Of a stretch of DNA of 64,000 nt, positions 43,435-46,740 are shown piece by piece (the stretch's first letter is position 1; the number at the start of each line of letters is the position of its first letter). Where the stretch lies: assembly GCF_009914755.1 (NCBI RefSeq), contig NC_060926.1; one strand, given 5' to 3'. Under the pieces are notes generated by a model. The model was not told where the DNA came from and made no database searches. It saw nothing but the letters and a program-made list of their open reading frames with translations. Both the position numbers and the translations under genes were made by a program. The stretch is from the human T2T-CHM13v2.0 reference genome, Homo sapiens.

Positions 43435-45336
43435 GCTCACTCGCTGCAAATGGTCTACCCTCCACCTCCCAGCTCCTCCATTGATCTCACTGAAAGAAAA
43501 GATTGCTGGCTCATCAATGATAGTGGCTCTGGCATGTGCAAAGCTGGCTTTGCTGGGGAAGACACCCCCTGAGCCATGTTTCTCTCCATCGTCAGGTGCC
43601 CCTGGCACCACAGTGTGATAGTGGGCATGGGCAAGAAGGACTCCTACATGGGTGACAAGACCCAGAGCAAGCCAGATGCTGACCCTGAAGTACCCCATCC
43701 AGCACTGCATGGACACCAACTGGGGCAACATGGAGAAGATCTAGTACCATACCTTCTACAACAAGCTGCGCATGGCCCTGGAGGAGCACCCTGTGCTGCT
43801 GAGGCCTCCCTGAACCCCAAGGCCAATAGAAAGAAGATGACTCAGATCATGTTTGAGACCTTCAATACCCTGGCCATGCATGTGGGCATCCAAGCTGTAA
43901 TGTCCCTCTATGTCTCTGAGTGCACCACTGGTATTGTCATGCATTCTGGAGATAGGGTCACCCACACAGTGCCCATCTATGAGGGCTACACCCTTCCCTA
44001 GCCATCCTGTGTCTGGACCAGGCTGGCCGGGACCTGTCCAACAATTTCATAAAGATCCTTACGGAGCACAGCTACAGCTTCACCAAAACAGTCGAGAGGG
44101 AGATCGTGCGTGACATCAAGAGAAGCTATGGTATGTTACCCTGGACTTTGAGCAGGAGATGGCCACCACTGCATCCTCCTCCTGGAGAAGAGCTACCAAC
44201 TGTCCAATAGCCAGATGATCACCATTAGCAATGAGTGGTTCTGACGTCTGGAGGCGCTGTTCCAGTTCTGAAGATTATGCTAACTTAATAAAATAAAAAT
44301 AACCTAATAACTCCACCATGAAGTATGATGTGGGCATCCACAAGGACCTGTACACCAACATGGTGCTGTCCAATGGCACCACCACATACCCAGGCATCAT
44401 GGGCAGGTTGCGTAAGGAGATCGCCACCCTGGTACCCAGCACCAAGAAGATCACCTCCCTGCTGAGTGCAAGTACTTGGTGTGCATCTGCGGCTCCATCC
44501 TGGCCTCGCTGTCTACTTTCCAGTAGATGTGGATTAGGAAGCAGGAGTACCATGAGTCAGTCCCCTCCATCATCCACTGCAAATGCTTCTAAATGGACTG
44601 CAGGCAGTTGCTTGTAGCATTTGCTGCATGGGTTAATTCAGAAGTATAAATTTGCCCCTGGCACATGTATACACCTCATGCTAGCCTCATGAAACTGTAA
44701 TAAGCCTTTGAAAACAAATTTGTCCTTGAAGCTTGTATCTGATAGCAAGACTGGACTGTAGAACTTGTTGCTGATTTTAACCTTGTATTCAGGTTAACTA
44801 TTCCCTAGTCATTTGTTTAATACACTGTACATACCTTTGATTTCAACCTTTAGTACATGTGGCTGGGTCAGTTCATGGCTGAGGAAAGAACATGCTTGTG
44901 AGAGACAAGTCCATGGCGTGGTGAGCCCGAGTAGCCAGTAGTCTCCGATCTGCAGAGGGTATTAAAGTATCATGGCTGAGTGTCATGGGATTTCTCCAGA
45001 GGCTGGCAAGGGCTCCTGAACCAGTTGTCATTTCTATCTTGCCAGTCTCTTAGGGTTGGAAAAGTCCAAGCTGTAGGATCCCGCTTCCTTTCTTACCTGA
45101 TGTTTTCCTGCCAGAACACCATGGACTGTTACTTGCCTTGAGTTGGAAGCAGTTTGCACTTACACCTGTAAATTTATTCATCCTTTAAATTTATGTGAGG
45201 GTTTTTTGTACACAATTCTCGATTCTTTAAGACATGATAACAGACTTTGGTTTTCTACTGTTATGTGAGAACATGAGGCCCCAGCAACACATCATTGTGT
45301 AAGAAAAAATGAAAGTGCTGCCATAACCAGAAAAAA
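43435..45336 (+). pseudogene. ACTG1P: Processed (retroposed) gamma-cytoplasmic actin pseudogene, full length with UTRs
   Basis: Intronless actin CDS remnant 43490-44592 (ATG>[32 protein letters not shown]; ends aaatgcttctaa) with frameshifts and stops; ACTG1-specific 3' UTR (gcatttgctgcatgggttaatt...tgtgagaacatgaggccccagcaacac); poly(A) signal decayed to aatgaa at 45308; short poly(A); identical TSDs aagataatgatgtg at 43421-34 and 45337-50. Confidence 0.98.
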
Positions 45337-46740
45337 AAGATAATGATGTGAAACCACTTCGAAAAGTGGTTTCAAATATATTGGAATATTGAAAATGCAG
45401 TTACTATTAAAAAAATGATGTTTTCAGTGATGTGCTGTTAGGTGTGCATTAGGTTATTTTTATTTTATTAAGTTAGCATAATCTGCAGAACTAGGATGGC
45501 AAATTTAAGCCTGCTCAGGCTAGGTGTGGCTGTTCTGAGACTCATCATGCCCCAAACTGATCCCACACAGTAAGATTTTTTTCCCACAGGGAAAGGGAAA
45601 GCATTTGTAGCTCTGGCGTGCTTCAACAGTTTTCATTTCTCCAATATGGAAATCATGGCATATGATACCAAAATTGCATTATCCAAACCCCATTGCAAAT
45701 ATGTTCTCCATATTTTTATCAGAAATAAAGTTTCACAAACCCACCAAGTGGTACAATGGATCGACATTCCTCTTCCTCTTTCATATTAATGGATTTTACT
45801 CTGTCCTATCATAATAAACAAAACACCAGTATAATAATTAATAACTAAGCTTAGGCCTTCAGCGTTTTCCAAGATCTCTAAACAATGAAGATACAGCCAC
45901 AAACAGCAATTTGACCTACTAAAGAGATTTTGAAGAGGGACAAAAAGAGCAGTATTTCCACTTTAGACAGAACACTTCATTAAAAACAATCCTCAATAAA
46001 TATTGAAACAAAGGTACTTCTTTTTCCTTTATCAGCAACCCCCTCATCTTTTACTCATTGGTATGTTCAATGACCAGTGTGTTTGCAGTACTTATACCTA
46101 CTCATGTTCTTTCTTGAGTGCTCAAAAAGATGATCACAGAACAAGGTCCTCAATTACAATAAATAGAACACTACACATTTAGTACATGCCAGAAAAATGG
46201 ACTGTAATATTAAATCAAATGAGATCAAAATTCAATTCAGAAAAAAATATGAAGCACCAAGCTAAGCATCAGCTCTATTATTTTGCCAGTGTGTAAAAGA
46301 TATATGTTGATATTTAATGAATGCATGAGGAAAATTTGTATCAAAATACTAAAGGAAGGCTAGTACAATGCACATGGTTCTTATCAATGTGAAAACAGCA
46401 GAAACTCTTACATGTTTCATCAAAGTTCAAAATGTTTTACAACATGCTCGAACTAGTCTAAATAGATTCCCTGTTTTTGGTGTAAATTCAGAAAGAAGTT
46501 ATTTCTTAGATCTAAGATTTAAACTACTTTGGAAATAAAACATGAAGGTAAGAGGGTTGCCAAAAGTGCATATATGTATAGGAAAAGACAGACAGCTTCC
46601 ACTCTCATTGCCCATTAATCTTACACATTCTATATGTAAGTATAGAAAAACTCAGTCTCTTTGGCATTTGGAATATTCCAATAATGGACATAATTAGAAA
46701 TAAAAAGGTAAAGTAACTTCAGGGTGGCCACATAACAATT

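What the first reader, a model, noticed from the sequence alone, without database searches (positions are those of the whole stretch)
44264..45492. Templated inverted insertion inside the actin pseudogene, copied from its own 3' flank
Seen: where ACTG1 encodes about 48 nt between ...LFQ and NSIMK..., the pseudogene has agttctgaagattatgctaacttaataaaataaaaataacctaat (44264-44308). This is the reverse complement of 45448-45492 at 44 of 45 bases. The donor lies about 100 bp past the 3' TSD and about 1.1 kb from the insert, with an AG microhomology at the left junction. Inference: a double template switch (fold-back, FoSTeS/MMBIR, or Pol-theta-type templated repair) replaced a deleted segment with one of similar length. 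The near identity, against heavy divergence of the rest from ACTG1, suggests the event is younger than the retroposition. The alternative is a switch by L1 reverse transcriptase onto flanking DNA during integration. The insert also adds two sense AATAAA signals (44287, 44292) and creates a 45-bp inverted repeat.
Basis: partly seen in the sequence, partly recalled or inferred. Interest (0 to 1): 0.7.

Follow-up and report, generated by a model that had tools for sequence, protein, structure and literature searches.

The report
Inverted flank copy patched into actin pseudogene
A dead actin gene copy on human chromosome 2 had 48 of its bases replaced by a backwards copy of 45 bases lying 1.1 kb downstream, a clean but ordinary example of a known DNA-copying error with no sign of any function.

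Summary
Window 44264-44308 is the reverse complement of 45448-45492 at 44 of 45 bases. These are the only two places in the whole 3.1-Gb assembly that match at up to 3 mismatches. Similarity falls to chance right outside the arms.

Alignment to the real ACTG1 exons shows the patch replaces exactly 48 native bases spanning the exon 4/5 junction. The parent gene and 11 of 11 other ACTG1 retrocopies keep those bases. The host is a full-length L1-type retrocopy (43435-45336) with a 14/14 target-site duplication, an A-run remnant, four premature stops and many frameshifts.

The retrocopy's own-lineage divergence is 6.0% at A/T sites and 12.3% at non-CpG G/C sites. A copy made at integration should then show about 6 differences. 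One is seen (P about 0.01; 0.003 by an empirical window test). The event is therefore probably younger, with a best estimate of about 16% of the retrocopy's age.

This is a switch-and-return template-switch mutation of a known kind. Only the 1.1-kb template distance and the 45-nt length are unusual. Primate orthologues could not be checked. Interest is low.

The parts
43421..43434 (+). 5' target-site duplication AAGATAATGATGTG
   Evidence: Direct repeat D3, 14/14 identical to 45337-45350 (re-read). It abuts the retrocopy's 5' end.
43435..45336 (+). ACTG1 processed pseudogene (ACTG1P22): intronless, near full length, with the whole 3' UTR. RefSeq annotates only 43490-44589.
   Evidence: It aligns collinearly to the joined exons 2-6 of ACTG1 on contig C17. 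Difference is 257/1772 = 14.5%. It has four premature stops in the parent frame and many frameshifting indels.
44264..44308 (+). Inverted templated patch: 45 nt, of which the first two (AG) are shared with native actin. It replaces 48 native nt that span the exon 4/5 junction.
45331..45338 (+). Poly(A) remnant, a run of 8 A. The last two A overlap the 3' TSD.
   Evidence: Read directly. It sits at the position of the ACTG1 cleavage site in the alignment.
45337..45350 (+). 3' target-site duplication
45349..45374 (.). Hairpin-forming palindrome (11-bp stem, 4-nt loop) right after the 3' TSD, between patch and donor. Whether it played a part in the event is unknown.
   Evidence: Inverted repeat I7. 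The DNA fold gives -10.8 kcal/mol, z = -6.68, and 0 of 200 shuffles fold as well.
45448..45492 (-). Donor (template) of the patch, in unique flanking DNA 97 nt past the 3' TSD
   Evidence: The flanks show no further similarity.

Best explanation
Long after an ACTG1 mRNA was retrotransposed into this site, a DNA polymerase copying the pseudogene made a switch-and-return template switch.

In + strand terms, the growing strand left its template after ...GTTCCAG (44265). It re-annealed through the two bases AG to the same-sense strand 1.2 kb downstream (45491-45492). It copied that strand backwards to 45448. It then returned to the original template at AACTCC (44309), skipping 48 native bases.

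The result is a 43-nt-for-48-nt replacement and a new 45-bp inverted repeat with a 1139-nt spacer. In the four-point model this is type 1-4-3-2, and in MMBIR terms it is a templated insertion with replacement. I take the most likely setting to be a stalled or uncoupled replication fork, with either an intra-strand fold-back or a switch to the lagging-strand template.

Shown here: the copy, its orientation, its sharp bounds, its uniqueness, the replaced native segment and the relative age. Inferred: the polymerase, the fork setting and the order of the two switches. The event has no visible functional consequence, because the pseudogene was already dead.
For: - The copy is 44/45 reverse-complement identical and sharply bounded.
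- Only two copies exist in the genome.
- The patch replaces 48 nt that the parent gene and 11 of 11 other retrocopies retain, so it is not an mRNA isoform.
- The rest of the retrocopy is collinear with the mRNA.
- Timing: own-lineage divergence is A/T 47/789 and non-CpG G/C 96/781. That predicts 6.15 differences, and P(<=1) = 0.010. The empirical window test gives 0.003. The best estimate of relative age is 0.16, with a one-sided 95% upper bound of 0.73.
- The class is well documented in human and ape germlines. Type 1-4-3-2 made up 31% of high-confidence human-chimp events (PMC5453318, passages read). Inverted templated insertions 'with replacement' number about 100 germline events of at least 25 bp per person (PMC8421209, passages read).
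Against: - The template lies 1139 nt away. Published scans look within tens to hundreds of nt (PMC7954356) or within 100 bp (PMC8421209). The typical copied fragment is about 10 nt.
- Microhomology is only 2 nt at one junction and 0 at the other, which is no more than chance.
- The timing test is P about 0.01, not decisive. If local rates were half the raw estimates it weakens to P = 0.064. The perfect 14/14 TSD (P = 0.107) is compatible with a somewhat slower local rate.
- No orthologous or population sequence could be examined. Scans of the two open collections gave 0 hits.
Confidence: 0.55

Rival explanations
1. The event was post-integration double-strand-break repair with templated synthesis (polymerase-theta-type, synthesis-dependent microhomology-mediated end joining). 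A break inside the 48-nt segment was resected for more than 1.2 kb. The right-hand 3' tail (- strand, ending opposite AACTCC) snapped back on its own strand at 45448 and copied to 45492. It then paired through CT/AG with the left end and was sealed.
For: It gives the same product as the best explanation. The geometry works on paper: the - strand is the one left single-stranded by resection of the right end (reasoning). A 2-nt AG microhomology lies at the joining junction. An error-prone polymerase (recalled property of polymerase theta) could by itself explain the single mismatch. The timing evidence fits equally well.
Against: Snap-back priming at 45448 would have had no microhomology. From recall, and not tested here, polymerase theta's templated insertions usually come from the immediate break flanks and are shorter. 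I saw PMC7165422 only as a search listing and the start of its abstract.
Confidence: 0.25
2. The patch arose during integration. While L1 reverse transcriptase copied the ACTG1 mRNA by target-primed reverse transcription, the nascent cDNA (- strand) folded back on its own primer strand about 100 nt from the nick. It copied 45 nt there and jumped back to the mRNA 48 nt further on.
For: The donor lies only 97 nt beyond the 3' TSD, on the primer side of the nick. The strand polarity is right: the patch on the - strand equals the + strand reading of 45448-45492, so the - strand would be the template (reasoning). L1 activity does make small inversions. [quoted passage not shown]
Against: Both arms would then be as old as the retrocopy, so about 6.15 differences are expected and 1 is seen. 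P = 0.010, 0.003 or 0.0012. Twin priming inverts part of the retrotransposed RNA itself, not flank DNA. I know of no described case of a switch to duplex flank DNA followed by a return to the same mRNA (recall; no search was made for this).
Confidence: 0.06
3. A short DNA or cDNA fragment was captured at a break by end joining. The source would be, for example, an antisense transcript or a replication by-product of the flank, with no local template switch.
For: One junction is blunt and the other has only 2 nt of overlap, which is typical of end joining.
Against: The donor is intact and only 1.1 kb away on the same molecule, which points to proximity-driven copying. The gene table handed over with the finding lists no transcript over 45448-45492.
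Confidence: 0.05
4. The patch is not an evolutionary event at all. It is an assembly error or a mutation private to the sequenced cell line.
For: Only one assembly was available. The single mismatch could be a polymerase error, so by itself it does not prove any age.
Against: A 45-nt inverted patch with clean junctions inside unique sequence is not a usual assembly failure (inference). A private mutation would still be the same kind of templated event.
Confidence: 0.04

Closest known systems
Short-range template switch mutations, four-point model type 1-4-3-2 (Loytynoja & Goldman 2017, PMC5453318; Walker et al. 2021, PMC7954356; passages read)
   Same: The 1->4 fragment is replaced by the reverse complement of a nearby 2->3 fragment. 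The flanks stay collinear and a new inverted repeat is created. It occurs in the germline and needs no pre-existing repeat.
   Different: The copied fragment is 45 nt against an expected length of about 10. The template is 1139 nt away, while those scans restrict the search to tens to hundreds of nt. The ancestral state comes from the parent gene and paralogous retrocopies rather than from an orthologue.
MMBIR-type templated insertions, MMB-TI, 'insertion with replacement' (Osia et al. 2021, PMC8421209; passages read)
   Same: It is an inverted copy of a template in cis that replaces resident sequence. Such events are found as germline variants of 25 bp or more.
   Different: The template lies beyond the 100-bp limit of that tool. 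Microhomology is 2 nt at one junction and none at the other.
Polymerase-theta-mediated end joining with templated insertions (PMC7165422, seen only as listing and abstract start; other properties recalled)
   Same: It involves templated, possibly error-prone, synthesis at a break, a short microhomology, and a deletion plus an insertion.
   Different: The distance and length are larger than is usual for that pathway (recalled). One junction has no microhomology.
L1 twin priming and reverse-transcriptase template jumping (10.1101/2021.12.20.472354, abstract start only)
   Same: An inverted segment sits inside an L1-mobilised insertion.
   Different: The inverted piece is flank DNA, not the mobilised RNA. 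It is internal and only 45 nt long. The arms are too alike for an event as old as the insertion.

Membership tests
Template switch mutation (four-point model, type 1-4-3-2) / MMB-TI with replacement | The new fragment is the reverse complement of sequence nearby on the same molecule | tested here: met
   44/45 identity with 1139 nt between the arms. There is no third copy in the genome.
Template switch mutation (four-point model, type 1-4-3-2) / MMB-TI with replacement | It replaces a resident fragment while both flanks stay collinear with the ancestor | tested here: met
   48 native nt are missing and the rest aligns collinearly to the ACTG1 exons. The parent and 11/11 other retrocopies keep the segment.
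Template switch mutation (four-point model, type 1-4-3-2) / MMB-TI with replacement | It arose in resident DNA after the sequence was in place (an ancestral allele without it existed at this locus) | tested here: inconclusive
   The molecular-clock argument favours a later event: P = 0.010, 0.003, 0.0012. No orthologue or other allele could be examined (searches gave 0 hits).
Template switch mutation (four-point model, type 1-4-3-2) / MMB-TI with replacement | The copied fragment is complex sequence, not a low-complexity or repeat-family match | tested here: met
   All four bases are present, although G+C is only 20%. The sequence is unique in the genome, and the backwards control gave 0. 0/100 shuffles matched.
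Template switch mutation (four-point model, type 1-4-3-2) / MMB-TI with replacement | The template is within short range (tens to hundreds of nt, or within 100 bp in MMBSearch).
   The distance is 1139 nt. The limits are quoted. The authors say long-range switches were left out for tractability.
Template switch mutation (four-point model, type 1-4-3-2) / MMB-TI with replacement | Microhomology at the switch points | tested here: inconclusive
   AG (2 nt) at the left and 0 nt at the right. The pseudogene's sequence at the time of the event is unknown.
L1-mediated processed pseudogene | Intronless copy of a spliced mRNA ending at the gene's polyadenylation site with an A-run | tested here: met
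   The junctions of exons 2-6 are continuous in the alignment, except 4/5, which lies in the replaced 48 nt. The copy ends at the ACTG1 cleavage site and is followed by 8 A.
L1-mediated processed pseudogene | Target-site duplication flanking the insert | tested here: met
   14/14 at 43421-43434 and 45337-45350.
L1 twin-priming inversion | The inverted segment derives from the retrotransposed RNA itself and lies at the 5' part of the insert | tested here: not met
   The inverted 45 nt match the flank DNA, not ACTG1. They lie in the middle of the retrocopy.

The most novel reading that the evidence does not exclude
The patch was written by L1 reverse transcriptase at the moment of integration. 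The nascent cDNA folded back on its own primer strand about 100 nt from the nick, copied 45 nt of genomic DNA, and returned to the mRNA. That would be an undescribed RNA-to-DNA-to-RNA template jump during target-primed reverse transcription. The arms would have stayed 44/45 identical by luck or by a slow local mutation rate.
Probability: 0.05. Interest if true: 0.55.

Novelty: new member of a known kind. Interest (0 to 1): 0.2.

Why it matters
It matters little for biology. The host is a dead pseudogene, so the added AATAAA motifs and the 45-bp inverted repeat have no evident effect.

Its value is as a clean, datable specimen. The parent gene gives the ancestral sequence, so the replaced bases, both junctions and a relative age can all be read without an outgroup.

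It also shows that switch-and-return copying can reach a template more than 1 kb away with a 45-nt fragment. That is outside the search space of the published scans (within 100 bp, or tens to hundreds of nt). Such kb-range events are probably under-counted. Retrocopies compared with their parent genes would be a convenient substrate for counting them.

Tried and rejected
1. An exon-junction coincidence. From memory I first placed the exon 4/5 boundary exactly at the left junction, which would have suggested a splicing or RNA-end mechanism. The genome's own ACTG1 locus shows exon 4 runs 13 nt further (...CAGCCTTCCTTCCTGG|GT), so the junction lies inside the deleted 48 nt. I dropped the idea.

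2. An alternative mRNA isoform as the source of the patch. I rejected this because the donor region does not match ACTG1 or any place other than the insert, and 11/11 other retrocopies carry the native segment.

3. A common repeat. Rejected.

4. A longer, gapped inverted homology around the arms. None was found.

5. A right junction placed at a shared ACCT. I rejected this because the donor match continues three bases further, through AAT.

6. APOBEC-like hypermutation making the retrocopy look older than it is. The spectrum is dominated by CpG decay and ordinary transitions on both strands: G>A 37, C>T 30 and T>C 30 at non-CpG sites. I did not pursue it.

7. Looking for the locus in other people or primates. 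Exact-match scans of the two open collections returned 0 hits in genome contigs and 0 in viral contigs. These collections hold no primate genomes, so this says nothing either way.

9. Literature on ACTG1P22. 8 papers hold the name and 7 were listed, all expression or association lists judging by their titles. I read none of them. I made no search for this specific patch beyond that term.

Full report
**Observation**

The window holds a 45-nt inverted repeat with arms at 44264-44308 and 45448-45492. The arms are 98% complementary (44 of 45) and lie 1139 nt apart. The one mismatch is at 44271 (A), against G on the + strand at 45485.

The 45-mer, allowing up to 3 mismatches, occurs only at these two places in the window. 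None of 100 dinucleotide-preserving shuffles gave a match.

The window's own genome is held as a 3.1-Gb, 24-contig assembly.
- A pattern search with up to 3 mismatches found exactly the two arms, and the backwards-read control found none.
- A 141-nt query centred on the donor matched only itself and the insert.
- That tool skips very common words, but a 45-mer with all four bases is not one of those.

The similarity is sharply bounded. In register, the 60 nt outside the arms match at 12/60 and 13/60.

As a control, a self-comparison looked for inverted pairs of at least 30 nt and at least 93% identity within 5 kb. In the whole window the only other hits were three overlapping alignments of one (GT)n/(AC)n microsatellite pair. 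In 28 other actin-retrocopy loci (122,469 bases) only three pairs appeared, two of them in L006 and L007, whose matches scored identically. All three read as Alu fragments, a label I give from recall.

**The host**

A genome search with 43435-45336 found the parent gene ACTG1 on contig C17, matched exon by exon at 80-86% identity, plus dozens of other retrocopies.

- I read the exon borders from the locus itself and aligned the joined exons 2-6 to the window.
- The retrocopy is collinear from the 5' UTR through the whole 3' UTR to the ACTG1 cleavage site.
- It ends in a run of 8 A and is flanked by a perfect 14-nt target-site duplication, AAGATAATGATGTG, at 43421-43434 and 45337-45350.
- It differs from modern ACTG1 at 257 of 1772 aligned sites (14.5%). 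By class: CpG sites 80/176, non-CpG G/C 104/781, A/T 73/815.
- It has four premature stops in the parent frame and many frameshifting indels.
- RefSeq's ACTG1P22 span (43490-44589) covers only the coding-like part.

**What was replaced**

Between ...GCGCTGTTCCAG and AACTCC..., ACTG1 has 48 nt (CCTTCC...ACCTTC) that span the exon 4/5 junction. The window has 43 foreign nt there. The preceding AG is common to native actin and to the donor's reverse complement. The right junction has no shared base.

I first recalled the exon 4/5 border as lying exactly at the left junction. The locus shows it lies 13 nt further on, so there is no link to splicing.

In a multiple alignment, ACTG1 and 11 of 11 other near-full-length retrocopies keep the native segment. 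Only this copy has the patch. I used 11 of the 29 other actin loci fetched (L004-L032), choosing those with near-full coverage. I left out L007, whose match scored identically to L006's.

**Timing**

1. Raw divergence from modern ACTG1. If both arms dated from integration, this predicts 8.25 differences in 45 sites, and P(<=1) = 0.0012.
2. Own-lineage rates. Third codon positions at A/T sites differ at 19/47, which shows that the parent gene itself has changed. So I polarised changes against the majority of ACTG1 plus the 11 other retrocopies. The retrocopy's own-lineage divergence is A/T 47/789 (6.0%) and non-CpG G/C 96/781 (12.3%). This agrees with codon positions 1+2 (20/359 and 35/257). 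With these rates 6.15 differences are expected, and P(<=1) = 0.010.
3. Empirical windows. Among sliding 45-site windows of the retrocopy with G+C at or below 45% (414 overlapping windows, mean 3.14 own-lineage changes), the chance that two windows together carry at most one change is 0.003.

The maximum-likelihood age of the copy event is 0.16 of the retrocopy's age, with a one-sided 95% upper bound of 0.73.

Some points cut against this. The perfect TSD has P = 0.107 under the same rates. That is unremarkable, but it is compatible with a slower local rate. With half the raw rates, the test on the arms weakens to P = 0.064. The 45-mer is more A+T-rich (20% G+C) than any calibration set. The lone mismatch may also be a synthesis error rather than a later substitution, so the event could be very recent.

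**Mechanism**

In + strand terms the new sequence after ...CCAG is complementary to the + strand read from 45490 down to 45448. So the template had the same sense as the strand being made. This fits several routes:
- a nascent strand that switches to the opposite parental strand, or to itself, at a stalled or uncoupled fork;
- a resected - strand 3' tail that snaps back on itself at a break;
- the cDNA strand folding back on its primer strand during target-primed reverse transcription.

The finished sequence cannot separate the first two. The timing test speaks against the third.

I commit to a replication-associated switch-and-return after integration (0.55). Break repair with templated synthesis comes second (0.25), and a reverse-transcriptase event at integration is unlikely (0.06).

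An 11-bp-stem hairpin (45349-45374; -10.8 kcal/mol, z = -6.68) and the polypyrimidine run at the start of the lost segment could have stalled a fork. That is conjecture.

**Comparison with what is known**

[quoted passage not shown] The 1->4 fragment is replaced by the reverse complement of a 2->3 fragment. Type 1-4-3-2 creates an inverted repeat and made up 31% of high-confidence human-chimp events (PMC5453318, passages read).

Thousands of such events are placed on the great-ape tree. There the search space is limited to tens to hundreds of nt and the expected copied length is about 10 (PMC7954356, passages).

MMBIR-type templated insertions are defined as inverted copies of templates within 100 bp. 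They include a 'with replacement' class and number about 100 germline events of at least 25 bp per person (PMC8421209, passages). In human haplotype data the longest reported event was 318 bp (10.1101/2021.11.26.470150, passages).

The present case is therefore a member of a known kind. What stands out is the 1.1-kb template distance, which lies outside what those scans could see, and the 45-nt length.

**What could not be done**

No primate or other human assembly is reachable with these tools. Exact-match scans of the two open collections gave 0 hits, as expected. The notes of earlier readers were closed.

A search for ACTG1P22 found 8 papers, of which 7 were listed. Judged by title and abstract start alone, all were expression or association lists, and none was read.

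**Verdict**

This is an ordinary though tidy example of a template-switch mutation, with no functional consequence. Interest is 0.2.

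Noticed in passing
window 45346-45377 (stem 45349-45374): A near-perfect palindrome (14-nt arms, 4-nt loop; 11-bp perfect stem) starts inside the last bases of the 3' TSD. 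The L1 target site therefore sat right next to a hairpin-forming sequence. The DNA fold gives -10.8 kcal/mol, z = -6.68, and 0 of 200 shuffles fold as well. It could itself be the product of a short-range template switch.
   Followed up: partly
window 34646-34687 and 36363-36402: A (GT)n tract and an (AC)n tract of about 40 nt each lie in inverted orientation 1.7 kb apart. They are the only other inverted pair the window-wide control picked up.
   Followed up: no
window 43435-45336 versus RefSeq ACTG1P22 43490-44589: The annotated pseudogene span covers only the coding-like part. The retrocopy actually extends about 55 nt further 5' and about 750 nt further 3', through the whole 3' UTR to the A-run and TSD.
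   Followed up: yes
ACTG1 coding sequence, third codon positions (alignment): A/T third positions of modern ACTG1 differ from the retrocopy at 19/47 (40%), against 20/359 (5.6%) at A/T first and second positions. So raw retrocopy-to-parent divergence overstates the retrocopy's own change at A/T sites, and dating such copies needs polarised or non-synonymous sites.
   Followed up: partly
window 45003-45010 and about 45021-45024: Two further small insertions relative to ACTG1 lie in the 3' UTR part of the retrocopy: 8 nt (GGGCTCCT) and 4 nt (TCAT). I did not check whether they are templated from nearby sequence.
   Followed up: no
L006 and L007 (contig C24, 19.05 Mb and 18.66 Mb): Two ACTG1 retrocopy matches lie on opposite strands of the same contig with identical scores and identical inverted Alu-like pairs. 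This is what one would expect of copies in a large palindrome or inverted duplication.
   Followed up: no
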